Shown piece by piece: positions 3,101-24,269 of a stretch of DNA of 36,126 nt; within the stretch, counting starts at the first letter, position 1, and every line of letters starts with the position of its first letter. The DNA comes from Candidatus Nanohaloarchaea archaeon (GTDB lineage Archaea > EX4484-52 > GLR71). A program made the position numbers and the translations under genes. The stretch spans positions 1 to 36,126 of the forward strand of contig WTCB01000041.1 of NCBI GenBank assembly GCA_013138765.1, written 5' to 3'. Below the pieces are notes generated by a model. It was not told where the DNA came from and ran no database searches. It worked only from the letters and a program-made list of their open reading frames with translations.

Positions 3101-6100
3101 GCAACAGACGGCTGGGCAAATTTCACAGATATCGAATCCTTATGGAACCTGACTATAGACGCAATAGACTTAGGATATCAAAATCAAAGTCACAACAACA
3201 TCTATACATACCCTAACACTGACACAACCTACACATTCACATTGAACCAAACAAAAATAACAATAAATGTAACAGATGACCTAGGTATTTTAGAAAATGC
3301 AAATGTATCGCTTACAGACCCATCAACTGGCGCAACCCTTAAAGATTATCTTGGTAATCCCTTAAGCGCACTCACAGATTCTTATGGAAGTGTCACATTT
3401 ACCAGATTCAATATATCCACATACAACATAACAATCAATGAATCCTCCCATGATTTCTACAACCAGACACTGACACTTACAATGGACTCAGACAATGATA
3501 TGCAGATAAATTTAGACACAACAAGAATGACAATTAATGTAATAGACACATACAGCACACCACTTGCAGACATCTATGTAAGTCTAAACAAGACCGATGG
3601 CACAGCAAACTTTACAGGATATACAAACAGCACAGGTACAGTAATCCTTGAAAATCAGACATTCCCACCTGGACTTTACAACCTGACAGTCAATGGAACA
3701 AGTCTTGGCTACAACTACACAGAAAAACAGATAGACATCTATGGTGGTTCACAAAACATTGAAAACATAATACTTGAAGAATACAGACTAAAAATCCAGG
3801 TCAACAGCAGTTATGATAACAGTGCAGCAAAATCAGTAAATGTAACAATTGAAGAGATACCACAGTCAAAAAACACAGATGAAAACGGCACTGCACAATT
3901 CAGAAACCTTGAAAACAAGACATATACATTAACGATAAACGGAACTCAAGTGGGCTACAATGACACAGTATTATCCATAAACGTTACAGGGGACATAACA
4001 GTTGAAATACTTCTTGAAGAAAACACATTTAAGATAGAAATAAAAGATGAAGAAGGAAATCCAGTAAGTGCAGGAATAGACGTAGTTCTTTGGAACCCTT
4101 ATCCAACACTAATTTACGATGATGCATTAGGCAACAATCTAGAAGATGAAACAACACCCACAAACAACAACATAACCTTCAGATTGATGCAATACGAATC
4201 TTCGCCCGGAAACAACATCACAATGTTGGCAGATGGAAGCGACCAAGGATACGGAACAAACCTGACAGATTACACAATATTTAATGGAACAAACGGTCCA
4301 AACACCACCATATTAAACATAACACAGCTTTTAGTCAATGTGACAAACTCAACAGGTGCACCAGTAAACGCCGCAAATGTAACACTATTAACCCTATCTG
4401 GAGGTTATGTCCAAAATGGTCTTGGAGGCGGTAGCCAACAAATGAATGGCACAACTGCCTCAGATGGAACAATAACATTCAAATGGCTATTGCCCGACAC
4501 ATACAATGTATCAATTGAAAAAAATGTAAGCGGAACAATAGTTAGAAACTCAACACTTGTAACAATTACTGCAGGCGAACACAAATATGTTCACATTGAT
4601 CCAAACAACACACTTATACCTTCCCTTAAAGGAACATATTACAATAGCATTCTTGAAAATGACACCTATGACCTCCAAATAAACACAACAGGTCTTGCAG
4701 GACCTGTAGAAAATATAACTGTCAAAGTATATGCAACAGGATACGATTACGACAATGCATACTGGTACAATTACGAAGCGACAGACAACAAGACAACCGA
4801 CGCAAACGGCATAATTGTAATATCAAATATACCCGCCGGAGTTTACGATATATTAATCGATGGAGAAAGTAAAGGTTATGGTATCACAAAAACAAAGATA
4901 CAATTCGGAAAACTGGTATTTTCTGAAGAAACAACAGGAGGCGACGGAATCATTGAGATTCAAATAGATGGACAACCGATAGAAAATGCAGTAGATAACG
5001 GATATTTCATAAGAGTGACCGCAGCAGGATACAAAACATACGACACTTTTGATAATGGTGAAGAAGGATTAAAAGGAACCTATTATGATAATATTAATTA
5101 TGACCAAACCATTTATCCAGGTTATACCCTAAACAACCGAACAGACATAGCACTCAACGGTATCATAAACCTTGTTGGACAGATAACAGACAGTTTAGCA
5201 GTAAATGCACAACCAATTTTCAAAAATATCGCAAACACATTCATAGAGCTCATAATGCATGGGACTGGAACAGTAAGATACACAGCATACACCGATTCAG
5301 ATGGAAATTATAGCATAAATATCAGCCCAGCATTACAAGGCGCAACAGACATTAATTCCCCCCTTACATACGATATTAAAACAACAAAAATTGGATACCG
5401 ATCAATAACTGAAGAAAAAGTAATGCCAAATGCAACTGCAATAATAACTCAAGATATAAAAATTCCAGGATCATCAACAATCAATGGAAGTGTATATACT
5501 TACGATAATAAAGAGATTTCAGGAATCATTGTAAAATACATAGATAACGCAACACTTTCAGAGATATACAAAACTACAACAGATACCAACGGCGAATATA
5601 ACATCACAATAAATCCAGATTATCAACCATACATATTATCATTTTCAGACCCCACATCAAACACAAAAGATTACACAAGCCCTGTATACACAGAACCGCA
5701 TACAAACGAAAAATATTATCTTTTAGGTTCAGAACAGGCAACTCTAAATATATACATAATTGACAATAATAATGTTGAAGTTGAAAATGCAGAAGTTACC
5801 ATCAACTCATTTATTGATGAAAAAATTGCAACCTTCACAACAGACAATAATGGTCGTGTAGACCTTTTCATAGATGGAATTGAATGGAACATTGGTGAAT
5901 ACACCATAACTACAAATGGAAAAACATTAGGATATGGATTAAACACAGAAACAAAAAACATAATACCTGGATACAACACACACACATCAATCATAAATAC
6001 TACCAGAATAAACTTAAGCATCTCAAGCAATCTGGGAAATCCTATATACAACACAACTGCATACCTTACAGGAGATATATTTATCTCTAAAAATATCGAG

Positions 6101-8852: not shown

Positions 8853-9857
8853 TCAATTGGGCAGAATTGAATCTGAAAGTGCATTTGCAATTTCGATATA
8901 ATCTTGTGATTTAGGATCATTACAAGGTGCACCGAGATACAAATTTATAAGACATTTCATTGCAGAGATATCAAGTTTTCGATTATATGGATCTGTTGTA
9001 TAATGAACAAGTGCCTTTCGCATAGCTTTATTTGTTATACATATCCCCACAGCCGTTTTATTGACACATGAACTATCACAATATTGAGTTCCATCAGAAA
9101 GACATTCACCGACAGAATAACCATCACAGACAGAACTCCCCCCACCACAGCCAATACCAGTACTATTACAGACTTTATCAGGGTCATCTACAAATTTACA
9201 GCTACTATCACAAAAATCAATAAAATAAGTTTCACCAACAGTACAACTATTTGAATTATATCCCGGTACCTGACCACCACATTCCATATCGGCACCACAC
9301 GCGACACTACAAGCACCATCATCACTTGACACACCATTAGTACAAGTAAAATCATAAGTCAGATTAGCACAGATATAATTGCTATAAGGCGCAGTCACAC
9401 AATCCGCAATATGCGCATTAGTATCAGAACTGAAAGTCCCAAGACACGCCTGATATCCGGAATCAGAACAATTTTGTATTGTTTCATAACTGTATATTAT
9501 GGTGGCATCATCTGATGAAAGACAGACCCCTTCTAGATAATTCCCTTGATCTGATTTTTCCACATGCGCATTCGTCGCCGAAGACAGATTAAGAATATGG
9601 ATATCATCACAATTATTATTTAAATTAATACCTGTCGGAACCCCAGTCACAGTCACATCCTCACAAGAAACATTATACAAATAATTAGATCCAGTATAAA
9701 GTTCTGCATGCGCATTAAAAAGTCCTGACATCTTATAGACTAAAGTACCCAAACTTTGAGTATTTGATACCGTACAGTTTAATTCAGAAGAAACCGGCAC
9801 CAAGACTAATAAAAATGAAATGACCAATGAAATAATAAACACATTTCTAATTTTCAT
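8853..9857 (-). CDS. Secreted cysteine-rich protein (24 Cys in the mature part) with three NAH-containing repeats
   Basis: The ORF track starts at a TTG (9875). The ATG at 9857 gives a clean Sec signal, MKIRNVFIISLVISFLLVLVPVSS. Three repeats: LFNAHAELYTGSNY / ATNAHVEKSDQGNY / DTNAHIADCVTAPYSNY. The C-terminal half carries clustered Cys (ACSVACGADMECGG, GIGCGGGSSVCDGYSVGEC). No family recognised. Confidence 0.7.
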   Translation of the reverse strand: MKIRNVFIISLVISFLLVLVPVSSELNCTVSNTQSLGTLVYKMSGLFNAHAELYTGSNYLYNVSCEDVTVTGVPTGINLNNNCDDIHILNLSSATNAHVEKSDQGNYLEGVCLSSDDATIIYSYETIQNCSDSGYQACLGTFSSDTNAHIADCVTAPYSNYICANLTYDFTCTNGVSSDDGACSVACGADMECGGQVPGYNSNSCTVGETYFIDFCDSSCKFVDDPDKVCNSTGIGCGGGSSVCDGYSVGECLSDGTQYCDSSCVNKTAVGICITNKAMRKALVHYTTDPYNRKLDISAMKCLINLYLGAPCNDPKSQDYIEIANALSDSILPN

Positions 9858-9891
9858 ATAACCACACAAATTCAATATTTCATTAAATCAA

Positions 9892-10515
9892 TTAACAGCA
9901 CATACCCAAAGCCACACAGCATTCGTCTTTTGTCACAAGACCCAAATCAGAAAGTCTCGTATCACAAGTATTGCCCCTTTCAGCAGCATTACATGCAGTC
10001 TCCTGCAACTCAGAAAGCTTGACAATCGGTTTTTTGATGACTTCTGGCGCCTCTATCAGTTCAGAACTCTGTTGAGACCTATTATTTGCAACATCACCTA
10101 CATCATCATCATCTAAAAAACCATTAATACCAGACCCAAAAGAACTATCCACAACATAAATCTCTTGCAGATACTTATTCTTTAAAGAATCATCAATATC
10201 TGATTTATTTATATTGATTTTAGCCTGTTCAATATAGTTATTCTGTTTTATTATAAGTCCCGCAGAGAATCTTACTTTATCATCTGAATCAAGAGCATTC
10301 AATTCAAGTTCTCGCTCATTTGCTAAAGATATAAGTATTTCAGCCTTATCTATAGAACTGAATGTAAATAATAGATGAACCCTTTCAAAAAATAGATCAA
10401 ATGCATAAAATATATCTCCAGGAAGAACACCTGCATCCACTCTATCACCAACAGCATAAGATACAGGCATAATAAAGATTAAAACAAAGAGAATCACAAT
10501 AAAACCATATTTCAT
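9892..10515 (-). CDS. Secreted protein with a C-terminal six-cysteine module (C-x8-C-x14-CC-x5-CC-COOH)
   Basis: The internal ATG at 10515 is preceded by GGTGGGTGTGG (SD-like) and gives the signal peptide MKYGFIVILFVLIFIMPVSYA|VGD. The track start at 10599 adds an implausible Cys-rich leader. The C-terminus is CNAAERGNTCDTRLSDLGLVTKDECCVALGMCC. Confidence 0.65.
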   Translation of the reverse strand: MKYGFIVILFVLIFIMPVSYAVGDRVDAGVLPGDIFYAFDLFFERVHLLFTFSSIDKAEILISLANERELELNALDSDDKVRFSAGLIIKQNNYIEQAKININKSDIDDSLKNKYLQEIYVVDSSFGSGINGFLDDDDVGDVANNRSQQSSELIEAPEVIKKPIVKLSELQETACNAAERGNTCDTRLSDLGLVTKDECCVALGMCC

Positions 10516-10585
10516 AATACTACCACACCCACCATATATATTTATTAAAAATAGTATATAAAAACATAAGTCACAGATTATAGAA

Positions 10586-11095
10586 TCAACAACAGACATT
10601 AAAATCCAAACAGCAACTCTCTTTAGTCAATAAATTATTTGTTGCAAGATTAACAAACTCACAAAAATCATTATAATCATACCTGACGCACCATGCATTT
10701 GTCTTCATTTCACGTCGTATATTCACAGTGCTTGATTTAATTGTATAATTTATAGAGATATTATTCGGATAATCACCAATATAAGATACACCTTTCTCAA
10801 ATTCAAGTGTATACCCCGCCTTTGCAAGAACAGATCTCTCCTCAACAAGATATTCTTCAATATCATCAATTATAGATTTATGACCCACAACAGAAATAAT
10901 ATTAAATATGTCTGATTCCATTTGATTGATAACAAAAAGAGTCCTATCATACTGCATATATGATAGCTCAATATCACGATTCTGCGTAAGTGTACCATTT
11001 AATACTGTAAGTGAAAAAAGAATGACCACAATACTTATTACAAAAAACTGACCTTTGCGTGTTTTCTTAAAAACTCTTTTTTTTATATCAATCAT
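10586..11095 (-). CDS. Pilin-like protein (class III signal peptide) with a C-terminal six-cysteine module
   Basis: The N-terminus MIDIKKRVFKKTRKG|QFFVISIVVILFSLTVL has a basic stretch, KG-Q, and a hydrophobic helix of about 20 aa, as in archaeal prepilins. The C-terminus is CVRYDYNDFCEFVNLATNNLLTKESCCLDFNVCC. The start overlaps the upstream gene by 8 nt. Confidence 0.7.
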   Translation of the reverse strand: MIDIKKRVFKKTRKGQFFVISIVVILFSLTVLNGTLTQNRDIELSYMQYDRTLFVINQMESDIFNIISVVGHKSIIDDIEEYLVEERSVLAKAGYTLEFEKGVSYIGDYPNNISINYTIKSSTVNIRREMKTNAWCVRYDYNDFCEFVNLATNNLLTKESCCLDFNVCC

Positions 11096-12671
11096 AATAC
11101 CACGATTTCCATGTCATTACATAAGGTTGAGACATATCCTTATTTGCAAGAAGTACAAAATCACTTGATACAACATCGCGTGCATTGTCCTGTATAGTAG
11201 ACAAAACTATTGTTTTTGGTGAAACCCACAATATAAGATTTCTCAAAAGATGCCATTCATCAAGTGATACAATATTATCTGTTATCCATGCAGTCCGTCC
11301 CGTAAAACGACCATAATTTGCGATTGAAACCGGCATTTGCCCACCATAATTAGTCTCAAAATCTGATTCGACCAAAACATATTGAGATCTGTTCACCCCC
11401 TCATCACCAAAACCATGACTTGAATATACTTTATTATCCTTGTTCATATCAAAAAAGACATGAGACTCTTCAATATAGAATTCAATTGAATTTCCACGGA
11501 CATCAATTAATGATATTGTATAATTATTACCGTCAAGTTCAATAATATCACCCTGAAAAAGTCCTGAAAAATAACCATCATTTGTAAAATTAAGATCTTG
11601 ATTTTCATCAATATATAACTTATCATATCCTAAACCAGTAGAATTAATAAGCAAAACCCCATAATCTTCATGTTTCAAAGACATCAACTTAAATTTATAA
11701 ATCCCATTTGTTGAATTAATGGTACTTGAAAAATTCAATGTTGAACGAGAATCACCAATACATACACCACCATCATTAACAGTACAATTAGCAGAACCGA
11801 TTGTATGATTAGTGTCCCCTATATATACCACAACAATACCAGTTGTCATATCCCACCACCCCTCTTCAGAAACATTTAAATTAGAAACACCTTCAATATT
11901 TAATACAACCGGACTTACATAAAAATATTTATGTAATACGTATCCCGCTTCAAATGGATTCAAGTCAGAGAATGTAGAATTAAAATCTAAAGAAGGTAAA
12001 CTTGTATCATTCCATAATAATCCAAAAATATTTTTTTGCACATCAAAATCAACAAATGATTCATTGCTTAAATTTGAAATCTGAATCACACCTTTGCCTT
12101 GCCGAAGGAAATTCAAAAGTTTAATATTATATGTATCATTCATCAGACTGACATGACTGACCATCTCAATATCAGTCCCTTCAATAGGAATTACAAGCAC
12201 ATCAAAAGTTTTCCAATTTGCATCAAATGTAGTATTCCTTATTTCAAGCAAAGTTTTTTTACCATTGATGATCACCTGTTTATCTTCACCAAAAATATTT
12301 TGCGATATATTTGTACCGTATCTAAGGTATGTTTCTTCATCAGATGTCAAGACACCAACACGAATCAATGGTTTAATAAGATGTTTAAGAGTAATTGCAA
12401 CACCCATTTTTTCTTTCCCTGCAAGATACGACGCAACTTCAGAAAATGTATCAAAGCTGTTGCCTGAAATTAATTCAGTATAACCAAGATAGTTCATGAC
12501 ACCCGCAATATCTCTTGATTCCTGTGATAACCGTGCCACACGCCAACCATCATTTTCTGATATTACAGAGATAATATTACTAGAATAACTAAGAAGGATC
12601 ATTATTGCAATAACCGCTTCAAGACTATGCATAAACCCTTTACGCTTAAAACAAAACCGTTTCATAATCAA
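11088..12671 (-). CDS. Large pilin-like protein (527 aa, class III signal peptide); candidate minor pilin or tip adhesin
   Basis: N-terminus MIMKRFCFKRKG|FMHSLEAVIAIMILLSYSS. It shares the module DIIELDGNNYTISLIDVRGN with the adjacent 224-aa protein. Confidence 0.7.
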   Translation of the reverse strand: MIMKRFCFKRKGFMHSLEAVIAIMILLSYSSNIISVISENDGWRVARLSQESRDIAGVMNYLGYTELISGNSFDTFSEVASYLAGKEKMGVAITLKHLIKPLIRVGVLTSDEETYLRYGTNISQNIFGEDKQVIINGKKTLLEIRNTTFDANWKTFDVLVIPIEGTDIEMVSHVSLMNDTYNIKLLNFLRQGKGVIQISNLSNESFVDFDVQKNIFGLLWNDTSLPSLDFNSTFSDLNPFEAGYVLHKYFYVSPVVLNIEGVSNLNVSEEGWWDMTTGIVVVYIGDTNHTIGSANCTVNDGGVCIGDSRSTLNFSSTINSTNGIYKFKLMSLKHEDYGVLLINSTGLGYDKLYIDENQDLNFTNDGYFSGLFQGDIIELDGNNYTISLIDVRGNSIEFYIEESHVFFDMNKDNKVYSSHGFGDEGVNRSQYVLVESDFETNYGGQMPVSIANYGRFTGRTAWITDNIVSLDEWHLLRNLILWVSPKTIVLSTIQDNARDVVSSDFVLLANKDMSQPYVMTWKSWYYD

Positions 12672-12695
12672 TCCAAATCCAATAACTATAAATCC

Positions 12696-13370
12696 TCAAA
12701 AATACATAATATTTATCTTTGCCATAAAACCATCAAGTGTTGAATATCTATTTACCGCAACCATATCTCTATTAATGCTACCCCAACCATAAGATAATGC
12801 TGTTCTTTTAAGACCCACAAAATTTCCATCAGAGTCAATTATCGATATAGTATAATTCACACCATTGATTAAAATAATATTATCCTTTACACGATCACTA
12901 TAAAAACTATCTGCCCAAACATCAACAACATCATAACCAGATATACTACTATTTTGCACAGTAAAATTTACAGTTAATTCATCACTATAATCTTTATTAA
13001 ATACAGCAGTTCCAAAATGATTATTTCCTAAAATATCTTCAGTAAATATTATAGGATACTGTTCAATTATTATCTTCTGCCGATATCTATATTTCTCATC
13101 GATTGAATCACGGAGCTTCGTCCTGTTCCCTGCATAAATATCTATCAAAGATTCATTAAGCACATAATCCTTGATTTGAATATCCCTTAAAAACACTTCT
13201 GAAAAAAACCATGCTTCAGCATGAAGATTATTATTATCAATAGTATCATAAAAAGGACCTATTGAACCCATAGCAATATTTGCCGCATACACAACAGATA
13301 AAGCTAAAACAAAAAATGCAAAAATATAATCTATATTTAACTGTCCTTTACGTCTACACTGCAATAACAC
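12696..13370 (-). CDS. Pilin-like protein (224 aa, class III signal peptide)
   Basis: GTG start. N-terminus MLLQCRRKG|QLNIDYIFAFFVLALSVVYAA. It contains NIILINGVNYTISIIDSDGN, paralogous to a segment of the 527-aa protein. Confidence 0.65.
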   Translation of the reverse strand: MLLQCRRKGQLNIDYIFAFFVLALSVVYAANIAMGSIGPFYDTIDNNNLHAEAWFFSEVFLRDIQIKDYVLNESLIDIYAGNRTKLRDSIDEKYRYRQKIIIEQYPIIFTEDILGNNHFGTAVFNKDYSDELTVNFTVQNSSISGYDVVDVWADSFYSDRVKDNIILINGVNYTISIIDSDGNFVGLKRTALSYGWGSINRDMVAVNRYSTLDGFMAKINIMYF

Positions 13371-13403
13371 ACAAAAGACCCCACATATTATAAATCATAA
13401 AAC

Positions 13404-14342
13404 TTACCCAAAAATCATAAAGACAACAAACGCTACAACAGACAAAAATAATGCATGCTTGACACCTGCAGCTGCCGAACCCTCACTAATTTCACCACAC
13501 ATAAAACCACTGGTTATTGCCTGAATCAAGGCCATCAAAAAGAACAACGCTTCAAAATAACAAAGCTGCCCTTCCCCAAAACCAAAAGGAACACATATAG
13601 AACACACAAAAGGTACCATTGAACAATATTCTATCTCAGAACTGCTTGCAGACGAATCAGAAGCACCAAAAAGATTAACATCCATAAGACCCGAAGAGAC
13701 TAAAGGCATCATTATATTATACATCATAAGAGCTATGACTAAGAAAAGAAAAGAAATAAAATACATCATAATAACCTGCTGAGACATATCTGCTTTTCTT
13801 TCATCATGTAGTTCTTTTATAGCCTTTATATCAGTTGAAAGATCATCCATCACTTCAGTAACATCACCCCCTGCATTAAATGCTTCAAGAATTATAGTAA
13901 ATGACCTCCGCATAATACTACTATACTTAAGTCTATCAGCCATAGACGTCATAACCTGCACAAAAGGCATACCCCAAGAAAGTTGATGCACTGATTTTGC
14001 AATTTCAGAATTAAGTTCACCATAATCAGTATTCATACGGCTGCGTAATGCATCTTGAAATGTCATACCACTTTTTTTTGCTTCAGCAAAATCTCTCAAA
14101 AAACGAGGAAACTGTTCTTCCATACGATTATATTTAGAAAAATTAAAATACGCATAAAGCGATGAAGGCACAACCGAAATTATAGCTCCTAAAAACAAAA
14201 TAAATATACCCAATGATTGAAAAATAGGATTAAAAGCTAAAAAAAGACCAAAGATTATAAATAAAATACCAGTTATAAGAGATCCTTTTTTAAACAATTT
14301 CTCATTTTCATGCCTAAAAAACGTATTTATGTCAAAACCCAT
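13404..14342 (-). CDS. Type IV filament platform protein, C-terminal-half equivalent (T2SSF domain; FlaJ/TadC-like)
   Basis: Polytopic membrane protein with a cytoplasmic T2SSF-like segment, FPRFLRDFAEAKKSGMTFQDALRS...ILEAFNAGGDVTEVMDDL. The ATG lies immediately after the TAA of the preceding platform gene, in the same frame. Confidence 0.8.
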   Translation of the reverse strand: MGFDINTFFRHENEKLFKKGSLITGILFIIFGLFLAFNPIFQSLGIFILFLGAIISVVPSSLYAYFNFSKYNRMEEQFPRFLRDFAEAKKSGMTFQDALRSRMNTDYGELNSEIAKSVHQLSWGMPFVQVMTSMADRLKYSSIMRRSFTIILEAFNAGGDVTEVMDDLSTDIKAIKELHDERKADMSQQVIMMYFISFLFLVIALMMYNIMMPLVSSGLMDVNLFGASDSSASSSEIEYCSMVPFVCSICVPFGFGEGQLCYFEALFFLMALIQAITSGFMCGEISEGSAAAGVKHALFLSVVAFVVFMIFG

Positions 14343-15278
14343 TTAATTCGTCTCCGGAGTTATTCCTTTTATCAATAATATCACACCTGCAGAAACTATA
14401 GGTATTATAAGAAACACAACAGCCATCTGTGAACCAACAATAAATCCAGCCATATCTGTCCCCCCCATAGACCCCATTATGGCAGTAAGCACCATAAACA
14501 TAATTGACCCAATCATCACAACAGTAAGGTATATTTCTACAATCATTGAAAGCTTATGTTGTAACATTTTTAGAATCATCTTATATTGTGACATTGCAGT
14601 CTTTGATTTTTCCCTAAGATAAATACGAAGATCCCCACCTGATAACTCAACAGTCCTCATACCCCATAAAAGATCCATAAGCTGTTGAGACGGTGTCCGC
14701 TCGGCCGCATTTTTCAAAGCATGAAGTATATCAATGCCCAACACATCTACTTCTTCCACAATTTTATTTGCTTCTTTTGAAATTTCACCATATTCATTAA
14801 ATTTTGCAAGTGCACGAAACATCGCAATTGGTGGGGTACCGCCACCAGACAGTGTAGTAAGATACAATGTGGCATACGGAACAAGTCCATCTATCTTTTT
14901 TTTTCTTTCATCCCGACGTATACCTGGATACATATAAAAAAAACCAAAAATAAGCCCCGAAAAAAACACAGCACCAAAAATTGAAAAAAAAAGCGACATA
15001 AATATATTACAAGTAATTATAATGATTATGACCGATAAAGACAATGCCATACAAACAAAAACAACTATTGATGTAAGGACTGCCACAGAAATATAATCAT
15101 CTAAAGCCATGTTTATGTCCCCTTTTTTCATAGAGACCTTAAAATCACTAAAATATTTCATATAAGGCTGTACATAAGGACGAAATAAATCCGAAGCAAA
15201 CTTAACATAATTAAAACTACCTTTCAATTGTTCTTCTTGATTAAATGATTTAATCGATGTTGCTGTCATAATCCTCAC
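14343..15278 (-). CDS. Type IV filament platform protein, N-terminal-half equivalent (T2SSF domain; FlaJ/TadB-like)
   Basis: TM helices plus the FlaJ-like segment PYATLYLTTLSGGGTPPIAMFRALAKFNEYGEISKEANKIVEEVDVLGIDILHALKNAAERTPSQQLMDLLWGMRTVELSGGDL. The start overlaps the ATPase gene end by 29 nt. Confidence 0.8.
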   Translation of the reverse strand: MRIMTATSIKSFNQEEQLKGSFNYVKFASDLFRPYVQPYMKYFSDFKVSMKKGDINMALDDYISVAVLTSIVVFVCMALSLSVIIIIITCNIFMSLFFSIFGAVFFSGLIFGFFYMYPGIRRDERKKKIDGLVPYATLYLTTLSGGGTPPIAMFRALAKFNEYGEISKEANKIVEEVDVLGIDILHALKNAAERTPSQQLMDLLWGMRTVELSGGDLRIYLREKSKTAMSQYKMILKMLQHKLSMIVEIYLTVVMIGSIMFMVLTAIMGSMGGTDMAGFIVGSQMAVVFLIIPIVSAGVILLIKGITPETN

Positions 15279-17298
15279 CGATTAAATCCATCAAAGTATT
15301 ACTATCATTATAATATGCATTAATCACTTCATTGACACGCAAATAATTAGTTATATATTTATCAGACATCCACTCCAATATTTTCATCCTTTGACGAAGT
15401 TGATCTTTCAATAAATTTATACTGATCCCGCTCTCATTAGATATCTTACCAAGAATATGGCTCTCTGAAACAACTAAACATTTATCATTAAATGTATCTA
15501 ACTCAAATACTTTATTAGCTAATATTTTATCATTCTCAGAATCATAACCTATTATCTCTTGAACCTGTGTAACTCTTCGTACATATCCATTCTGTAATTT
15601 TAATCTTTTTGCAAATACCAAAAGATCCAATGTTTCAAGAAGCGACTTTGAAAGATTTATAGGTCTTGTAGTAAGCCTATCTACTACTTTTTCTAAAGAA
15701 TCAGCATGGAATGTTGAAAGTCCAGGGTGACCTGTTGCAATCTGCTGAAAAAATACTGAAGCTTCAATACCACGAATTTCACCCACAATTATATAATCAG
15801 GTCTTTGCCTAAGTGAACCTTTAAGAAGATCAAACATACTGACTTCACCACGACGTTTCCCACTAACATCAGACTCACCAAAACCAACCCGCGAAACCTC
15901 TGGTACCCAATGTTCATGAGATAATTTAATTTCAGGAGTATCTTCTATTGAAACCACTTTTGCAGAAGGTTTTATAAACATGGAAACAGCATTCAATAAA
16001 GACGTCTTTCCAGATGCCGTAGCCCCCACAATCAATATAGATTTTCCATACTCAATTGCAAGCCAGAGATATGCAAGAGTTCTTGAATCCATTGTACCAA
16101 AATTAAGAAGATGTACAGGCGTCAATGGTTCATTAAGGAAACGTCTTATCGTTATATTAGACCCTTTTGATGCAATATCTGTAGCGAGTGTTGCCTGAAC
16201 CCTTGAACCATCAGGTAAAGAACCTTGAAGAAGTGGCTCCGCCATAGATATTGACCTTCCACATTTCTGTGCAATCCTCATAACAAGGGTATCTAATTCC
16301 TCATGAGTCTTAAAAATAATATTAGTCTGCAATGAACCAAGTTTAGGATCCCTATGATAAACATACATAGGTATGCCAACACCATCACAGCTTATATCTT
16401 CTATATGGGAATCATTGAGTATTGGCTGCAAAGCTCCAAGTCCAACAAAATCACGAATTATATAATATTTATATATATCAAGTTTACTTTTATCTACTGA
16501 AAAATTAAAACGTATTATTATCTTTTCCATCATAGATTCTATGTATGTTGTAGATGAATCCTTACTGAATGACTTAAAATCAACATCAATCTCTTCTTCA
16601 ATCACTTTCTTAATTTTATCTATCTGACTTTTATCTTGTAAGGATAAAATAGGTTCCACAACAGTATATATTATACAATTTTTTTTATTATCCCATACAA
16701 TGTTCGCCCAAGCATATACTTTTTCACCATCTTTAGGTGCCGGAGGCGTTAATGGATATTTTATATTTGTCTTAAAAAAATCTGAAGTTGTCAAATTCTT
16801 ACGGACACGTATAGTCTTGAGTTCAAGATTTTCCAAATCCACACCTTTAATATCTTCTTTAAGCGTATTCTTCACATTTTTCTTATAATTACTACCAGAT
16901 ACCTGTTTATTTGCCATAGGATTCGAAATGACAGACGAAAAAGACTGTATATTAGAAACCGTTTCATTTTGATTATCAATAATTCCCGAAACAGCATTTT
17001 GAGAATCCGGATAAACTGGAAGTTGAGACTGATAAGGTCTTGGAACTTGATTACCTGAAAAAGACCTAAACGATTGCATTGGTGCAACATTTTCTTCAAT
17101 TATGAAAATTGGAGATGAATTGCCCCCTTTAGAAAAATTAGTAATAGGTAATTCCCTACGTTTTTCAGCACGAGACAATATTTTTTCAGTATTTTCAATC
17201 AGACCACTATTTATATCACTATGAATAATAGATGCTTGATACCTCTTTGCAAACTTTTTTGTAACTTTTCGAAGATTGAATCGTTTAATACTCACCAC
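15250..17298 (-). CDS. Type IV filament assembly ATPase (FlaI/PilB/TadA, GspE-VirB11 superfamily) with an extended low-complexity N-terminus
   Basis: Walker A VGATASGKTSLLNA, Walker B/Asp box RPDYIIVGEIRG, His box ATGHPGLSTFHADS. GTG start inside a GAGGTGGTGA SD-like string. About the first 190 aa are S/N/Q/P-rich and not part of the usual FlaI fold. Confidence 0.9.
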   Translation of the reverse strand: MVSIKRFNLRKVTKKFAKRYQASIIHSDINSGLIENTEKILSRAEKRRELPITNFSKGGNSSPIFIIEENVAPMQSFRSFSGNQVPRPYQSQLPVYPDSQNAVSGIIDNQNETVSNIQSFSSVISNPMANKQVSGSNYKKNVKNTLKEDIKGVDLENLELKTIRVRKNLTTSDFFKTNIKYPLTPPAPKDGEKVYAWANIVWDNKKNCIIYTVVEPILSLQDKSQIDKIKKVIEEEIDVDFKSFSKDSSTTYIESMMEKIIIRFNFSVDKSKLDIYKYYIIRDFVGLGALQPILNDSHIEDISCDGVGIPMYVYHRDPKLGSLQTNIIFKTHEELDTLVMRIAQKCGRSISMAEPLLQGSLPDGSRVQATLATDIASKGSNITIRRFLNEPLTPVHLLNFGTMDSRTLAYLWLAIEYGKSILIVGATASGKTSLLNAVSMFIKPSAKVVSIEDTPEIKLSHEHWVPEVSRVGFGESDVSGKRRGEVSMFDLLKGSLRQRPDYIIVGEIRGIEASVFFQQIATGHPGLSTFHADSLEKVVDRLTTRPINLSKSLLETLDLLVFAKRLKLQNGYVRRVTQVQEIIGYDSENDKILANKVFELDTFNDKCLVVSESHILGKISNESGISINLLKDQLRQRMKILEWMSDKYITNYLRVNEVINAYYNDSNTLMDLIGEDYDSNID

Positions 17299-17740
17299 CT
17301 CTCAAAAATATAGAGTCACCATCATATTCCACTTTTAATATCTTACCCGAACTGGAAACAATACCTTGAACGTTAACAGAGACATCAACAATTTTCCTGC
17401 TATTACCCATTTTTATCATAAATTTATTTTGAGGTGGATTAAACCCAGATATTAAGTATCTTTCTTGACTTATAGTCTCTGGGATTTCAAGAACAACATA
17501 GCCTGATGTTGCATTTGAATATACAAGCTTATCTATTGCAGAAATTATAAAATTAGAGATCTGCATAGCACTCTGCTCTTCAATATCCCCTGAAACACGA
17601 TTATTTATACTATTAAATGTTGATGAAACTCCTGTAATTATCAAAATTGCAAGAGCAATAAACAATATCTCTTCAAGAACTAAATTCTGTCCTTTACGTT
17701 TTCTTGAAAAATATTGCATCACATTCACACTAACTGCCAA
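17285..17740 (-). CDS. Pilin-like protein (151 aa, class III signal peptide)
   Basis: The N-terminus contains ...MQYFSRKRKG|QNLVLEEILFIALAILIITGVSS. It overlaps both neighbours (11 and 14 nt), which suggests translational coupling. Confidence 0.65.
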   Translation of the reverse strand: MAVSVNVMQYFSRKRKGQNLVLEEILFIALAILIITGVSSTFNSINNRVSGDIEEQSAMQISNFIISAIDKLVYSNATSGYVVLEIPETISQERYLISGFNPPQNKFMIKMGNSRKIVDVSVNVQGIVSSSGKILKVEYDGDSIFLRGGEY

Positions 17741-18683
17741 ATGATACTGTCACAGGTGTCACTGTAAGTGGACCTCCTGTCTTTTCGGCAACTACCCCAG
17801 AAACAAAATCATCAAGAGTAGATATTGTCAATGAAACTTTTGTAAGTGAATCACTTGAACCAATAATATTATTTCCTTTCTTTGTAATCAATGTAAGATA
17901 GCCATTCCCATTTTCATTATTAATATCATCAAGCTCACGATATACTAACTTAAAAATAGTCTTGTATCCATCACCATGGGGGATTGTCTTAACAACGATA
18001 ACTCCTGCCTCATTGACGCCTGAAAAACCAGTATTCACTTTTTCAGGACCAGATATTGTGACAAAATCATTAATGCAATCAATATATTCGACTTTATAAC
18101 CATCAGTACCTAAATGAGTTCCTGAAACCGCCCCAGTATAATCCATAGTATTATCAGTACAATCAACATCAACATCATTAATTGTACACAATAGACTAAA
18201 ATTACATTCATTATTTCCGGGCAGCATCACACTATCAGTATTATTCCCTGTATACATCGGTTGCGATATAGGATTAAACCCATCAAGAGAAACCCATTGT
18301 CCTACTGCTGAAGTAACCCCTTTTGTCATTATTGTATAAGTTATAGAATTGATTCGATTAGAAGGTACCATGGCTTTAATGCTGCCATCAGCAGTTTTAT
18401 TGAGCGTACCGCCGTCAATCCTCATTTCTCCTGCAAGATTAAGATTTATCACGCGAGAACCCCCGGATGATGAAACTTCATCAATTGATGTCTTTATATT
18501 CTGCATAATAGAGAATGCCTGAGTAACCTCTGAATTTGTTTTACTTTTATCAAGCATAGGAAGTCCCCACCAAAGTGCACCTGATACTGCAGCAATACTA
18601 ATCCCCGTAAGCAATATCATAGAGATTATCTGTACCTGCGCTTTTTTCCTAACAAAATTTGACGTCATAATAACCATACCCAT
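17730..18683 (-). CDS. Pilin-like protein (317 aa, class III-like signal peptide)
   Basis: N-terminus ...SNFVRKKA|QVQIISMILLTGISIAAVSGALWW, with Ala at position -1. The extracellular part has 5 Cys (ECNFSLLCTINDVDVDC...). Confidence 0.65.
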   Translation of the reverse strand: MGMVIMTSNFVRKKAQVQIISMILLTGISIAAVSGALWWGLPMLDKSKTNSEVTQAFSIMQNIKTSIDEVSSSGGSRVINLNLAGEMRIDGGTLNKTADGSIKAMVPSNRINSITYTIMTKGVTSAVGQWVSLDGFNPISQPMYTGNNTDSVMLPGNNECNFSLLCTINDVDVDCTDNTMDYTGAVSGTHLGTDGYKVEYIDCINDFVTISGPEKVNTGFSGVNEAGVIVVKTIPHGDGYKTIFKLVYRELDDINNENGNGYLTLITKKGNNIIGSSDSLTKVSLTISTLDDFVSGVVAEKTGGPLTVTPVTVSFGS

Positions 18684-18765
18684 AGATTAAATTAATTTAA
18701 TCATAAAAATTAATTTAAATCAGTTATTAATAATTCGTTACCGTAGAATATATAGTTTTAAGGAA

Positions 18766-18817
18766 AAACAAAAAAATAAAGAAAAATTATTTAAAAAAAG
18801 AAGAAAATAAAAAAAAG
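18766..18817 (-). terminator. Oligo-T tract cluster downstream of the major pilin gene (candidate archaeal terminator or attenuator)
   Basis: The minus strand immediately after the pilin stop reads TC-TTTTTTTT-ATTTTCTTCTTTTTTT...TTTATTTTTTTGTTTTT. Archaeal RNAP terminates at oligo-T runs. This sits in a 135-nt gap in an otherwise overlapping operon. Confidence 0.4.
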
Positions 18818-18818
18818 A

Positions 18819-19334
18819 TTAACAATGTGTATCTGTACCAGATACCACATTACATCCATATGCTAAAACATAACCATTATTTAATATGAACTCAAATGTT
18901 TTTGTAGTGCCTACAACTGGAAGATCCTCAGAAGCAACAGTCAAAATACAGGTCTCACTGATTTCAAGAGCATCATTACTAGTACAAGTACCTGTAAATG
19001 TAGGTGTAATTTCAATGGCACCATCTACTTTATAATTAGTAGTACCTTCATCAATCGCCGCAACTACAAGAGTACCAGTATTCTTAATTATAAAATCAAG
19101 ATTTGCTGAAGTTATAGGATTCTCCTGAACCTGTAATATCTGTAAATCAGTCCGCATCTTATCAGATTGTGCACTCACCTGATCCTCAATAGCAGCAGTC
19201 TGTGTATCAGTCATATCCATTATGAACTCATATGCAAGACCTGCAGCAGCAACAGTCATCATAAGAAGAAGAACCATTGCAATTACTGGAGTAATTCCCT
19301 TTCTGTTAACAATTTTTTTTGACATAATTATCAC
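18819..19334 (-). CDS. Archaeal type IV pilin (Pilin_N/DUF1628-type N-terminus); candidate major filament subunit
   Basis: MIIMSKKIVNRKG|ITPVIAMVLLLMMTVAAAGLAY closely matches the archaeal pilin N-terminal consensus (R/K-G-x-S/T-P-V-I-x-x-x-L-L/M-x-x-x-T-V). It is a small beta-rich body with 4 Cys, is first in the pilin series, and is followed by T-tracts. Confidence 0.8.
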   Translation of the reverse strand: MIIMSKKIVNRKGITPVIAMVLLLMMTVAAAGLAYEFIMDMTDTQTAAIEDQVSAQSDKMRTDLQILQVQENPITSANLDFIIKNTGTLVVAAIDEGTTNYKVDGAIEITPTFTGTCTSNDALEISETCILTVASEDLPVVGTTKTFEFILNNGYVLAYGCNVVSGTDTHC

Positions 19335-21946: not shown

Positions 21947-22012
21947 TCTCCCTGTTTTTTAAGAAACTGTATAATATAATCTTGTAAGAAGTATTGATTC
22001 ATGCGCAACCAA

Positions 22013-22026: not shown

Positions 22027-22086
22027 ATGATTATGTGAGTATACAGAAAAAATTAAAAAACAAATCAAAAATCTAAAAAAACATTT

Positions 22087-24218: not shown

Positions 24219-24269
24219 CTAAAAGCTATTTTTATAGACAAATATCTAAAAAATATATCAAACAAGTTC

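What the first reader, a model, noticed from the sequence alone, without database searches (positions are those of the whole stretch)
9892..10690. Shared C-terminal six-cysteine module (C-x8-C-x14/15-CC-x5-CC-COOH) on two adjacent pilus-operon proteins
The last 33-34 residues of the two neighbouring proteins align: CNAAERGNTCDTRLSDLGLVTKDECCVALGMCC and CVRYDYNDFCEFVNLATNNLLTKESCCLDFNVCC. They share Cys spacing, an L-x-TK-(D/E)-x-CC core and a terminal CC at the very C-terminus. The upstream parts are unrelated. One protein has a prepilin-type signal and the other a Sec-type signal. A conserved terminal knot on a pilin-like and a non-pilin protein could be a disulfide or metal-mediated docking or cross-linking module, for example to attach a secreted cargo or tip protein to the filament. 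It could also be a recognition tag. I do not recognise this motif.
Basis: seen in the sequence. Interest (0 to 1): 0.72.

Follow-up and report, generated by a model that had tools for sequence, protein, structure and literature searches.

The report
New six-cysteine docking-type module on archaeal pilins
The two matching cysteine-rich tails are real copies of a previously undescribed small folded domain that DPANN archaea place on pilus subunits and on the secreted or membrane-tethered protein encoded next door, and it probably helps fasten surface proteins to filaments.

Summary
Both tails are at the stated coordinates, share a C-x8-C-x14/15-CC-x5-CC framework, and are more similar than shuffles allow. 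All six Cys are invariant in orthologues.

The tails are not a private oddity of this locus. A profile search found 92 protein clusters carrying the module. Most are about 90-aa proteins: signal, lipobox or TM anchor, then linker, then C-terminal module. AlphaFold models it as a three-helix mini-domain (pLDDT 95). It has no match in Pfam, NCBIfam, PDB or Foldseek, and no paper describing it was found.

Two flavours exist:
- A, canonical, as on the DUF5667 protein here.
- B, divergent, at the C-terminus of filament subunits. These are class-III-signal pilin-like proteins in Woesearchaeota and Aenigmatarchaeota, and unrelated TrbC/VirB2-type pilins in Altiarchaeota.

B gene, A gene and a third gene with a conserved "X" domain form a cassette in at least 18 loci from other lineages, and also here (10586-11095, 9892-10515, 8853-9875).

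Best reading, inferred and untested: the modules are docking elements that join filament subunit, partner and X-type surface protein. The terminal CC is not obligatory, since internal, N-terminal and CCS/CCG forms occur, so a C-terminal processing tag is unlikely.

The parts
10586..11095 (-). Gene for the 169-aa pilin-like protein, the last prepilin-like gene of the pilus operon. It carries the B-type module.
   Evidence: ORF. The N-terminus MIDIKKRVFKKTRKG|QFFVISIVVILFSLTVL is class-III-signal-like by sequence. AlphaFold (pLDDT 73) gives a long N-terminal helix (15-69), a second helix, a 3-stranded sheet and then three short helices in the tail. Eleven orthologues are aligned. Synteny is conserved. 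There is no Pfam hit above threshold.
11051..11095 (-). Predicted class-III (prepilin-type) leader, M1-G15.
   Evidence: Read from the sequence. The invariant R13 K14 G15 Q16 F17 F18 V19 I20 is seen in orthologues. Cleavage was not tested.
10988..11050 (-). Hydrophobic N-terminal segment of the mature pilin-like protein (Q16-L36).
   Evidence: Sequence. It is the most conserved region of the family, at 82% identity, and is helical in the model.
10589..10702 (-). B-type (window variant) six-Cys module, T132-C169: TNAWCVRYDYNDFCEFVNLATNNLLTKESCCLDFNVCC.
   Evidence: All six Cys are invariant. hhalign to the canonical A profile gives 94.8% probability, E = 5.5e-8. hhalign to the Woese/Alti B profile gives 92.5%, E = 5e-7.
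9892..10515 (-). Gene for the 207-aa secreted DUF5667 protein, which carries the A-type module. The longest ORF runs up to 10599.
   Evidence: P0012 is 207 aa. Pfam DUF5667 scores 49 bits against a cut-off of 27. Orthologues start at MKY/MKA.
10453..10515 (-). Sec-type signal peptide MKYGFIVILFVLIFIMPVSYA.
   Evidence: Read from the sequence. No predictor was run.
10180..10431 (-). DUF5667 domain, residues 57-140 of the 235-aa ORF.
   Evidence: Pfam PF18915, E = 8.3e-13.
9895..10020 (-). A-type (canonical) six-Cys module, KLSELQETACNAAERGNTCDTRLSDLGLVTKDECCVALGMCC.
   Evidence: The AlphaFold model built with the 99-sequence alignment has pLDDT 95.4 and three helices at 4-15, 22-26 and 31-38. 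It is the best-conserved part of the protein. BLASTP finds 47-67% identity to the C-terminal modules of small proteins in Woesearchaeota and Altiarchaeota.
8853..9875 (-). Third gene of the cassette: a Sec-signal, Cys-rich (25 Cys) 340-aa protein.
   Evidence: ORF. It has no Pfam hit. It is conserved downstream of the DUF5667 gene in L001, L003 and L042.
8856..9068 (-). X-like region at the C-terminus of the 340-aa protein. The core is NKAMRKALVHYTTDPYNRKLDISAMKCLINLYLG at 8931-9032.
   Evidence: hhalign of the X-domain profile (A8) against this region (A9) gives 95.4% probability, E = 1.9e-8. BLASTP to the gene-3 protein of L023 gives E = 2e-4. The HMM hit in the six-frame scan is weak, at 19 bits.
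11088..19334 (-). Rest of the type-IV-filament operon. Prepilin-like proteins: 527 aa (11088-12671), 224 aa (12696-13370), 151 aa (17285-17740) and 317 aa (17730-18683). Pilin: 171 aa (18819-19334). Two T2SSF platform proteins: 13404-14342 (Pfam-tested) and 14343-15278 (assigned from syntenic L001). PilB-type ATPase: 15250-17298.
   Evidence: ORFs. Pfam hits are T2SSE plus PilB3_C, T2SSF for 13404-14342, and sub-threshold Pilin_N/Arch_flagellin for the 171-aa pilin. The second platform gene 14343-15278 was not scanned here; both syntenic genes in L001 carry PF00482. Each prepilin-like protein has a [KR]G/A-Q-type N-terminus by sequence. The layout of one ATPase plus two platform genes corresponds to 'system 1' in bioRxiv 10.64898/2026.04.22.720090.

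Best explanation
Both tails are copies of a previously undescribed extracytoplasmic mini-domain. It is about 40 aa long, with three short helices and six invariant Cys arranged C-x8-C-x12-15-CC-x5-CC.

The domain is widespread in DPANN archaea and comes in two flavours:
- B sits at the C-terminus of filament subunits.
- A sits on a Sec-exported, lipobox-anchored or TM-anchored protein encoded immediately downstream.

A third gene follows, encoding a surface protein with a conserved 'X' domain. In this window the trio is the 169-aa pilin-like protein (B), the DUF5667 protein (A) and the Cys-rich 340-aa protein (X at its C-terminus).

Proposed mechanism. The modules fold on their own and are probably locked by three internal disulfides. 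They act as docking elements that assemble the trio outside the cell. This could work by direct A:B pairing, or by both modules binding the X domain. Either way, the secreted partner and the adhesin-like protein become coupled to the pilus subunit.

What is shown: the domain family, its predicted fold, the two flavours, and the conserved gene cassette on two unrelated filament types.

What is inferred: the disulfides, any physical binding, and which partner binds which.
For: **Family.** A tail profile searched against 1.84 billion representatives found 94 hits at E <= 1e-3. Ninety-two are genuine, carrying 99 modules. Their median length is 89 aa, and 83 of 99 modules lie within 6 residues of the C-terminus. 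Spacing is 8/14/5 in 68 modules and 8/13/5 in 24.

**Fold.** The AlphaFold model has pLDDT 95.4 and three helices. The six Cys are the only Cys in both mature window proteins.

**Homology of the flavours.** hhalign probabilities are 90-95%, with E from 1e-6 to 5e-8.

**Cassette.**
- A DNA-pattern scan for the A module in GTDB genomes gave 24 real loci. Of these, 15 have a B module directly upstream (18 if the degenerate tails are counted) and 20 have an X domain directly downstream. Neither B nor X was used in the search.
- The reciprocal scan with a B pattern gave 22 loci. Among the 11 new ones were two B-A-X loci, one A-X-B and two B-X.
- The B carriers are class-III-signal pilin-like proteins in Woesearchaeota and here. 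In Altiarchaeota they are TrbC/VirB2 or T4SS_pilin proteins that score above Pfam cut-offs.

**Modularity.**
- A tail-less pilin paralogue, 69% identical, lies beside the tailed one in L013.
- Fusion proteins of the form lipobox-A-A-X exist (P0020-22, P0026, P0067).
- A alpha/beta-hydrolase in L005 and L012 carries an N-terminal A module.
- The A-tagged 595-aa protein P0069 lies two genes from an X-domain giant protein.

**Co-absence.** In L046-L048 the syntenic pilin-like homologue lacks the tail, and the A and X genes are also missing.

**This lineage.** The B-A-X order is conserved in L001, L002, L003 and L042.
Against: - There is no direct evidence of binding. No complex prediction or biochemistry could be run.
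- Partial cassettes exist: B without A (L031, L035, L036, L043) and A without B (L009, L010, L015, L026). A:B pairing therefore cannot be obligatory, and the X domain may be the real partner.
- Tandem modules in fusion proteins are both A-like rather than A plus B.
- There is no obvious charge complementarity between A and B, judged by eye only.
- The co-absence in L046-L048 is probably a single evolutionary event.
- Many DPANN habitats are anoxic, so stable extracellular disulfides are an assumption.
Confidence: 0.5

Rival explanations
1. The modules never touch each other or the X domain. Each is a self-contained, disulfide-stabilised cap or ligand-binding knob, for example binding a host-surface component, a mineral or a glycan. 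The same knob is displayed both on the filament and on membrane-tethered stalks. Gene adjacency would then reflect only a shared role in one adhesion apparatus.
For: - The module is confidently predicted to fold as a monomer.
- It occurs alone on about 80 small tethered proteins and in orphan loci (L015).
- Tandem A-A copies suggest avidity.
- Gene-3 proteins carry adhesin-type PKD, Big_7 and DUF2341 domains.
Against: - It does not explain why two systematically different flavours are kept. B is on filament subunits in every locus but one (L031), and A is on the neighbour, across three phyla and two pilin classes.
- It does not explain why the module gene sits directly upstream of an X-domain gene in 20 of 24 loci.
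Confidence: 0.2
2. The tail is a recognition tag for a shared sorting or maturation step, such as C-terminal processing, lipidation of the terminal Cys pair, or handling by a thiol-disulfide oxidoreductase. It would not be a functional domain of the mature proteins.
For: - 83 of 99 modules end within 6 residues of the C-terminus, most of them exactly at CC-COOH.
- Both window proteins end in CC.
- One locus (L008) has a signal-peptide protein with a thioredoxin-like GCPYC motif about 2.3 kb upstream (a single case).
Against: - Internal, N-terminal and tandem copies exist (P0020-22, P0026, P0067, P0069; L005 and L012 hydrolase), as do trailing residues such as CCS, CCG and CCQNRG.
- The module is a confidently folded 3-helix domain.
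- No conserved enzyme gene is seen in the cassettes.
- There is no match to NCBIfam sorting-signal models.
Confidence: 0.1
3. The six Cys coordinate metal (Zn, Cu, Fe or an Fe-S cluster) instead of forming disulfides. The module would then be a metal-binding, metal-bridged or redox element on the filament and its partner.
For: - Six invariant Cys include two vicinal CC pairs.
- The organisms come mostly from anoxic groundwater or sediment metagenomes, judging from record titles.
Against: - There is no conserved His, and the only nearly invariant acidic position (E9 in A3) is not kept across the wider family, so no ligand set beyond Cys is evident.
- AlphaFold gives a compact helical fold with no cofactor.
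- An even number of Cys, with no other Cys in the mature proteins, fits three disulfides.
- The only recurrent weak sequence similarity is to the penaeidin domain. From my own knowledge of its solution structure, that domain has three disulfides.
Confidence: 0.1
4. The small A-type proteins are prepropeptides of secreted Cys-rich peptides, either antimicrobial or pheromone-like. The tails on the pilin and on the DUF5667 protein would be co-opted copies.
For: - The architecture of signal, linker and C-terminal 6-Cys peptide resembles toxin and antimicrobial-peptide precursors.
- 13 of 99 modules give weak Penaeidin hits.
Against: - 40 of 92 proteins have lipobox-like motifs and others have uncleaved-looking TM anchors, so they appear tethered rather than released.
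- No processing sites are conserved in the linkers.
- The tight linkage to pilin and X genes would remain unexplained.
- Penaeidin scores are all below Pfam's cut-off.
Confidence: 0.06
5. The resemblance is chance similarity between two Cys-rich tails.
For: The sequences are short (33-34 aa) and Cys-rich, and the pairwise BLASTP E-value is only 2e-4.
Against: - Shuffle tests reached the observed score in 0 of 20000 and 160 of 20000 trials.
- The Cys are invariant in orthologues.
- Profile-profile E-values range from 1e-6 to 5e-8.
- The gene pair recurs in dozens of independent loci.
Confidence: 0.01

Closest known systems
Penaeidin cysteine-rich domain (Pfam PF05927; PDB 1UEO, penaeidin-3a)
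   Same: - It has the same type of Cys framework, C...C...CC-x5-CC, and a near-identical local motif: CCSRLGRCC against CC(S/K)xLGKCC.
- It is the only Pfam family hit repeatedly, by 13 of 99 modules.
- From my own knowledge of the penaeidin-3 solution structure, its six Cys form three intramolecular disulfides around one helix.
   Different: - All scores are below threshold: best E = 0.011, and 14.7 bits against a cut-off of 25. The PDB profile E-value is 4.7.
- Loop lengths differ: x3/x10 against x8/x12-15.
- Foldseek reports no match.
- Penaeidins are shrimp antimicrobial peptides with a Pro-rich N-terminal domain, not parts of pilins.
- The resemblance is most likely convergence.
Cohesin-dockerin system of cellulosomes (analogy for how it may work)
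   Same: Small modular domains are appended to otherwise unrelated enzymes and adhesins. Complementary types sit on scaffold and cargo, and the same module is found on hydrolases and Ig-domain surface proteins. This parallels the A module on the L005/L012 hydrolase and the X proteins with PKD or Big_7 domains.
   Different: - There is no sequence or fold relationship, and no dockerin or cohesin Pfam hits.
- No Ca-binding F-hand motif is present.
- The scaffold here would be a filament subunit.
- Binding is not demonstrated.
Minor-pilin/tip-adhesin complexes of type IV filaments (PilY1/PilC with PilVWX-FimU; GspK-I-J)
   Same: A non-pilin secreted protein is encoded beside low-abundance pilin-like genes at the end of a pilus operon. 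It is presumably carried by the filament through them. The bioRxiv survey notes a PilY-like adhesin in archaeal subsystem 4A.
   Different: The known systems do not use a shared Cys-rich module on both partners. There is no PilY1 or other adhesin Pfam hit here. The same module also occurs on VirB2-type pilins.
C-terminal cystine-knot (CTCK) dimerisation domains of mucins and von Willebrand factor (analogy)
   Same: They are Cys-rich domains at the extreme C-terminus of secreted proteins, and they join two polypeptides by disulfide-linked dimerisation (from my own knowledge).
   Different: CTCK domains are about 90 aa, beta-rich, carry 10-11 Cys and are eukaryotic. Here the module is about 40 aa and helical. 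No Pfam hit was found.
Archaeosortase-type C-terminal sorting signals (PGF-CTERM and relatives)
   Same: They are C-terminal elements shared by otherwise unrelated archaeal surface proteins.
   Different: Those signals are a short motif, a TM helix and a basic tail, and they are cleaved. Here there is no TM helix, the element is a folded domain, and it also occurs internally. No NCBIfam hit was found.

Membership tests
Six-Cys three-helix module family defined here (A, B and window-B flavours) | Framework C-x8-C-x12-15-CC-x5-CC with all six Cys present. | tested here: met
   The window A tail has 8/14/5 spacing and the window B tail 8/15/5. The family distribution is 8/14/5 in 68 modules, 8/13/5 in 24, 8/15/5 in 4 and 8/12/5 in 1.
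Six-Cys three-helix module family defined here (A, B and window-B flavours) | Significant profile similarity between the flavours. | tested here: met
   hhalign gives A against window-B 94.8% (E = 5.5e-8), A against Woese/Alti-B 90.5% (E = 1.3e-6), and B against window-B 92.5% (E = 5e-7). Caveat: Cys-rich profiles can inflate such scores.
Six-Cys three-helix module family defined here (A, B and window-B flavours) | Cassette context: B on a filament subunit, then an A-bearing exported protein, then an X-domain protein. | tested here: met
   In the window: window-B at 10589-10717, A at 9895-10020 and X at 8910-9041, all on the minus strand. The X assignment rests on hhalign at 95.4%.
Six-Cys three-helix module family defined here (A, B and window-B flavours) | Three intramolecular disulfides, or physical binding between modules or to X. 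| not testable with these tools
No multimer prediction or biochemistry was available.
Penaeidin (PF05927) | Score at or above Pfam's gathering cut-off of 25 bits. | tested here: not met
   The best score is 14.7 bits, E = 0.054, for P0026. Thirteen of 99 modules hit at E <= 1, the best being 0.011. The window proteins gave no hit.
Penaeidin (PF05927) | Pro-rich N-terminal domain followed by a C-x3-C-x10-CC-x5-CC domain. | tested here: not met
   Neither window protein has a Pro-rich domain. Only the CC-x5-CC part coincides.
DUF5667 (PF18915), for the protein at 9892-10515 | Pfam score above the gathering cut-off of 27 bits. | tested here: met
   49 bits, E = 8.3e-13, residues 57-140 of the 235-aa ORF. 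Orthologues carry precomputed PF18915 hits.
Archaeal type IV pilin-like protein (class III signal peptide), for the protein at 10586-11095 | Short basic leader ending in [KR]-G, followed by about 20 hydrophobic residues. | tested here: met
   KKTRKG|QFFVISIVVILFSLTVLNGTL. RKGQFFVI is invariant in orthologues. This was judged by eye, with no predictor.
Archaeal type IV pilin-like protein (class III signal peptide), for the protein at 10586-11095 | Match to a pilin family model (Pilin_N PF07790, Arch_flagellin PF01917). | tested here: not met
   The 169-aa protein gave no such hit at E <= 0.1. Foldseek against the PDB gave nothing at E <= 0.001. The 171-aa pilin of the operon hits both models, but below their cut-offs.
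Archaeal type IV pilin-like protein (class III signal peptide), for the protein at 10586-11095 | Encoded in an operon with a PilB/FlaI-type ATPase and TadC/T2SSF platform genes. Predicted shape of an N-terminal helix plus a beta-sheet. | tested here: met
   T2SSE plus PilB3_C and T2SSF (13404-14342) hits were found in the same minus-strand operon; the second platform gene is assigned from syntenic L001. The model has helix 15-69 followed by 3 strands.
Archaeal type IV pilin-like protein (class III signal peptide), for the protein at 10586-11095 | Cleavage by a prepilin peptidase and incorporation into a filament. | not testable with these tools
   This requires experiment.
TrbC/VirB2 or T4SS_pilin (PF04956 / PF18895), for the B-tail carriers in Altiarchaeota loci | Pfam score above the gathering cut-off. 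| tested here: met
   L021 scores 42.8 bits and L004 33.8 bits for T4SS_pilin, cut-off 26.6. L024, L034 and L006 score 35.0, 37.9 and 39.5 bits for TrbC, cut-off 27.9.
Cohesin/dockerin | Pfam dockerin or cohesin match, with Ca-binding F-hand repeats. | tested here: not met
   No such hits were found on the window proteins, the module carriers or the gene-3 proteins.
Archaeosortase/exosortase C-terminal sorting signals and SCIFF-type six-Cys peptides (NCBIfam models) | Match to an NCBIfam model. For sorting signals, a TM helix after the motif. For SCIFF, a cytoplasmic precursor with a radical-SAM neighbour. | tested here: not met
   NCBIfam gave no relevant hits for 10 module proteins. No TM segment follows the motif. 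Signal peptides are present, and no radical-SAM gene lies in the cassettes.

The most novel reading that the evidence does not exclude
The A and B six-Cys modules, together with the X domain, could form a general plug-and-socket system. DPANN archaea would use it to decorate two evolutionarily unrelated filaments, type-IV-pilus-like and VirB2-type, with interchangeable cargo. That cargo would include adhesins with PKD or Ig domains, an alpha/beta-hydrolase and DUF5667 proteins. The attachment might be locked covalently by disulfide exchange at the vicinal CC pairs. This would be an archaeal, filament-based counterpart of the cellulosome principle, and a molecular handle on how these episymbionts attach to hosts.
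Probability: 0.3. Interest if true: 0.88.

Novelty: categorically new. Interest (0 to 1): 0.78.

Why it matters
DPANN archaea are tiny and mostly uncultured. They depend on physical contact with other cells, yet how their surface filaments carry adhesins or enzymes is unknown.

This work defines three things:
- A new, easily recognisable domain family of about 40 aa with six Cys, absent from Pfam, NCBIfam and the PDB.
- Two flavours of that domain, which sort cleanly between filament subunits and their neighbours.
- A three-gene cassette conserved in Aenigmatarchaeota, Woesearchaeota/Nanoarchaeota and Altiarchaeota, present on both type-IV-like and VirB2-like pilins.

If the modules are docking elements, they explain how cargo is mounted on archaeal filaments. 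They would also be a compact pair of binding parts of possible biotechnological use.

Even if they are not docking elements, the family annotates about 90 clusters of 'hypothetical' small proteins. It also flags the adjoining X-domain proteins as filament-associated surface proteins.

The hypothesis can be tested directly with peptides of 40 residues.

Tried and rejected
**Searches that returned nothing useful**
- Family libraries: Pfam on the window proteins, on module carriers, on 99 isolated modules and on gene-3 proteins; NCBIfam on 10 module proteins. No family covers the module or the X domain. Only sub-threshold Penaeidin hits appeared.
- Structure: Foldseek of the module model against PDB and BFVD found nothing. 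Foldseek of the whole pilin-like model found nothing at E <= 0.001.
- PDB sequence profiles for the module, the DUF5667 protein and the X domain gave nothing significant.
- The third homologous-protein search, with the 99-sequence module alignment, returned a single hit. The word index does not suit a 42-aa profile.
It was replaced by degenerate DNA patterns.
- The A-pattern scan of viral contigs gave 0 hits.
- BLASTP of the window's ATPase and platform proteins against the Woesearchaeota and Altiarchaeota loci found none within the 8-kb pieces. Linkage to a full pilus machinery is therefore shown only for the window's lineage.
- Literature searches found no description of the motif.

**Ideas tested and rejected**
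- I tested whether tandem modules in fusion proteins are an A plus B pair in cis. Both copies score as A, with only a slight B-ward trend in the second copy, so the idea was rejected.

**Not attempted or not possible**
- Mirror-tree or covariation analysis of A against B was considered and not run. About 20 phylogenetically clustered pairs of 35-aa modules would not be decisive.
- Disulfide connectivity could not be read, because model coordinates are not returned.
Full report
**1. The observation**

The window carries a minus-strand operon typical of an archaeal type IV filament system.
- It has a 171-aa pilin (sub-threshold Pilin_N and Arch_flagellin hits).
- It has five further proteins with class-III-like N-termini.
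- It has a PilB-type ATPase (T2SSE plus PilB3_C).
- It has two T2SSF platform proteins (one Pfam-tested here, the second assigned from the syntenic L001 locus).

The layout of one ATPase plus two platform genes corresponds to the 'system 1' type reported for methanogens and some DPANN archaea (bioRxiv 10.64898/2026.04.22.720090).

The last pilin-like gene is 10586-11095 (169 aa). The next gene is 9892-10599 as the longest ORF.

The pattern occurs only twice in the six-frame translation of the window, each time directly before a stop codon.

The similarity is not chance:
- BLASTP gives E = 2e-4.
- None of 20000 composition shuffles reached the observed score.
- Only 160 of 20000 shuffles with fixed Cys positions reached it.

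The six Cys are the only Cys in either mature protein.

The DUF5667 gene most likely starts at MKYGF (10515; 207 aa), as in its orthologues.

**2. Conservation in the same lineage**

Eleven orthologues of the pilin-like protein keep all six Cys, down to 63% identity. So do the seven full-length orthologues of the DUF5667 protein.

In the DUF5667 protein the module is the most conserved segment. Its mean pairwise identity is 83%, against 65% for the DUF5667 domain and 47% for the acidic linker.

The two genes are adjacent, and the whole operon is syntenic, in a 154-kb DPANN contig and two other contigs. GTDB records place the lineage in Aenigmatarchaeota.

Some orthologues end in CCS or CCG, so a free terminal CC is not required.

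**3. The tails belong to a large, undescribed family**

I searched a profile of the two tail types against 1.84 billion representative proteins. It returned 94 hits at E <= 1e-3.
- One hit is a repeat-protein artefact (P0090) and one is a re-found orthologue (P0013).
- The other 92 carry 99 modules.
- Their consensus is LSELQxTACNxADxxGTCxT(R/K)LxxLG(I/L)VxxE(E/D)CCxxLGKCC. This is the form seen on the window's DUF5667 protein.
- 79 of the 92 proteins are 135 aa or shorter, with a median of 89 aa. They consist of an N-terminal hydrophobic segment, a low-complexity linker and the module. Forty have a lipobox-like motif.
- 83 of 99 modules end within six residues of the C-terminus.
- Seven proteins carry two modules in tandem.
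- Some proteins carry the module directly behind the signal peptide of a large protein (P0069, 595 aa; the 582-aa alpha/beta-hydrolases of L005 and L012).

With the 99-sequence alignment, AlphaFold models the 42-residue module at pLDDT 95.4 as three short helices.

Nothing in the reference libraries covers it:
- Pfam and NCBIfam have no model for it.
- Foldseek finds no PDB or BFVD neighbour.
- A PDB sequence profile finds only the CCSRLGRCC stretch of penaeidin-3a, at E = 4.7.
- Sub-threshold Penaeidin hits recur in 13 of 99 modules. The CC-x5-CC framework is shared, but membership fails.
- No paper in the searchable library describes the motif.

**4. Two flavours and a conserved gene pair**

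A degenerate DNA pattern for E[ED]CCxxLGKCC found 25 places in GTDB species genomes.
- Twenty-four are real module ORFs.
- They come from Woesearchaeota/Nanoarchaeota and Altiarchaeota records.
- A few contigs are labelled Methanosarcinales or Hydrothermota, and these are probably mis-binned.

In 15 of these loci the gene immediately upstream, on the same strand, ends in a divergent six-Cys module. Its consensus is ICQNAxxxGLCxGLDxV(F/Y)GxGYxxACCSEHxLCC.

The carriers of this 'B' flavour differ by phylum:
- In Woesearchaeota they have class-III-type N-termini, of the ...SQAAMEFLMTYGWAILVV... kind.
- In Altiarchaeota they are TrbC/VirB2 or T4SS_pilin proteins above Pfam cut-offs. A Thr-rich linker precedes the module.
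- Three more Altiarchaeales loci have a TrbC pilin with a degenerate tail (...GFAHCCCVNGYPKCC) in the same position.

Profile-profile comparison supports common origin of the flavours:
- Canonical A against B gives 90.5%, E = 1.3e-6.
- A against the window's pilin tail gives 94.8%, E = 5.5e-8.
- B against the window's pilin tail gives 92.5%, E = 5e-7.

In L013 a tail-less paralogue, 69% identical over the pilin body, lies between the tailed pilin and the A gene. The tail is therefore a discrete add-on.

The reciprocal scan used a B-type pattern and returned 22 loci, 11 of them new. Among the new ones:
- Two are B-A-X.
- One is A-X-B.
- Two are B-X.
- One is B alone.
- One has a partial A directly after B at the contig end, and one has a partial A 2.4 kb downstream of B at the contig end.
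- The remaining three are cut by contig ends.

**5. A third component**

In the other lineages, the gene directly downstream of the A gene encodes a Sec-signal protein. It opens with a conserved domain of about 70 aa. Its pattern is C-x5-K-xx-L-(R/K)-K-x-L-xx-Y-xxx-P-x5-L-xxx-E-(V/I)-K-D-L-L-x-F-Y-L-S...VDCS, and I call it X.

Variable adhesin-type domains follow X, namely PKD, Big_7 or DUF2341.

I scanned all fetched loci in six frames with HMMs for A, B and X:
- X lies right after A in 20 of the 24 loci found through A alone.
- There are 18 complete B/A/X trios outside the window's lineage.
- L050 also pairs the two: the A-tagged 595-aa protein P0069 lies two genes from an X-domain giant protein.

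Proteins P0020-22, P0026 and P0067 are fusions of lipobox, A, A, X and variable domains.

In the window, the Cys-rich 340-aa protein (8853-9875) carries an X-like segment at its C-terminus:
- hhalign gives 95.4% probability, E = 1.9e-8.
- BLASTP gives E = 2e-4 to the L023 gene-3 protein.

More distant Aenigmatarchaeota give natural variants:
- A 29%-identical homologue keeps a divergent tail (L045).
- Three related contigs have a 121-aa syntenic homologue without the tail, and also lack the A and X genes (L046-48).
- One contig keeps the tail but has lost both neighbours (L043).

**6. How it most likely works**

Shown:
- An independently folding six-Cys domain family exists.
- It has two flavours that sort between filament subunits and their neighbours.
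- The B-A-X cassette is conserved across three phyla and two non-homologous pilin classes.
- Fusions link A with X.

Inferred:
- The even number of Cys with no others in the mature proteins, the extracytoplasmic location and the penaeidin-like framework all suggest three internal disulfides.
- The modules are probably docking elements that assemble pilin, exported partner and X-type surface protein.
- Assembly could be by direct A:B pairing, or by both modules binding X.
- X-linked partial cassettes (B-X and A-X) make the X-hub version at least as likely as direct pairing.

I put 0.5 on the docking reading as a whole.

Rivals:
- Independent ligand-binding or stabilising knobs: 0.2.
- A sorting or maturation tag: 0.1. 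It is weakened by internal and N-terminal copies and by the confident fold.
- Metal or redox binding: 0.1.
- Secreted peptide precursors: 0.06.
- Chance: 0.01.

**7. Comparison with known systems**

By sequence pattern the nearest thing is the penaeidin Cys-rich domain, but the membership test fails.

By logic the nearest things are:
- cohesin-dockerin;
- tip-adhesin/minor-pilin complexes of type IV filaments;
- C-terminal cystine-knot dimerisation domains.

All three are analogies only, with their defining features tested and not met, or not testable.

The DUF5667 assignment of the partner protein is a true membership (49 bits against a cut-off of 27). It says nothing about function. The family name did not occur in any searchable paper.

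**8. Verdict**

The feature is real, and its conservation and gene context indicate selection and a functional link.
- The docking idea is plausible, and it is strengthened by comparative genomics, but it remains unproven.
- The emphasis on the terminal CC-COOH is not borne out.

The domain and the cassette appear to be undescribed.

Noticed in passing
window 143-8077 (+): A giant 2644-aa surface protein has a signal peptide, dozens of Ig/CarboxypepD_reg-like repeats (only 'faint' Pfam hits on its homologues) and a C-terminal TM anchor. It is convergent with the pilus operon. The same arrangement is seen in L001, L003 and the distant L047.
   Followed up: partly
window 8853-9875 (-): Besides its X-like C-terminus, the 340-aa protein has 25 Cys and three repeats built around (S/T)NAH(A/V/I)E...NY...C motifs. 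These are conserved in L001, L002 and L003. It has no Pfam match.
   Followed up: partly
L005 4313-6061 (-) and L012 693-2447 (-): A 582-584-aa alpha/beta-hydrolase (PGAP1/lipase-like Pfam hits) carries a canonical six-Cys module directly behind its signal peptide and has a C-terminal TM anchor. It is encoded in the same cassette as a B-tailed pilin, a small A protein and an X protein.
   Followed up: partly
L004, L006, L021, L024, L025, L027, L034 (Altiarchaeota): Several TrbC/VirB2-type pilin paralogues occur per locus, some with Thr-rich mucin-like linkers and six-Cys tails. No VirB4 was identified in the short loci. Only a weak HerA_C hit was seen, at L004 5-544.
   Followed up: partly
L013 5132-5578 (+): A tail-less paralogue, 69% identical, of the B-tailed pilin lies between it and the A gene. 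This suggests filaments could mix tailed and untailed subunits.
   Followed up: yes
P0006, P0007, P0009; L002 and L003 (N-termini of pilin-like orthologues): The predicted cleaved leader of the pilin-like protein begins MTECCC(V/A)K in one sub-branch. That is a Cys triplet in the cytoplasmic part of the class-III signal.
   Followed up: no
window 22354-24129 (+), within the low-GC stretch 22001-26000: A DDE transposase (PF01609) lies in a region where GC falls to 0.29-0.31 and GC skew changes sign. It is probably an insertion element separating the pilus/thermosome block from the sugar-nucleotide genes.
   Followed up: no
window 28224-35962: A cluster for amino-sugar nucleotide synthesis contains two phosphoglucosamine/phosphomannomutases, a HAD hydrolase, a GlmU-like nucleotidyltransferase-acetyltransferase and GlmS. 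It also includes an ArsR-HTH protein with an S_layer_C-like domain (31783-32688).
   Followed up: no
L011, L019, L029, L032, L033, L037, L039 (labelled Methanosarcinales), L023 (Hydrothermota bacterium), L044 (Campylobacterales): Short contigs carrying typical DPANN cassettes are filed under unrelated taxa in public MAGs. They are most likely binning errors, not evidence that the module occurs outside DPANN.
   Followed up: no
L008 1383-2798 (-): A signal-peptide membrane protein with a thioredoxin-like GCPYC motif lies 2.3 kb upstream of the B-A-X cassette. It could be an extracytoplasmic thiol-disulfide oxidoreductase. It was seen in this one locus only.
   Followed up: no
gene-3 proteins (e.g. 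L014 6134-7963, L016 2336-3439) and L050 8704-13395: After the X domain comes a second Cys-rich motif, C-x-DGT-x-YG-x-CS-xx-KP-x-YC-x-G-x-L-...-C-x-CGC. It is repeated many times in the 1564+-aa protein of L050 and matches no Pfam family.
   Followed up: no
L031 2983-3528 (+): Here a B-flavour module sits on a lipobox-type protein, not a pilin, directly upstream of an X protein. Flavour and carrier type are therefore not strictly coupled.
   Followed up: no
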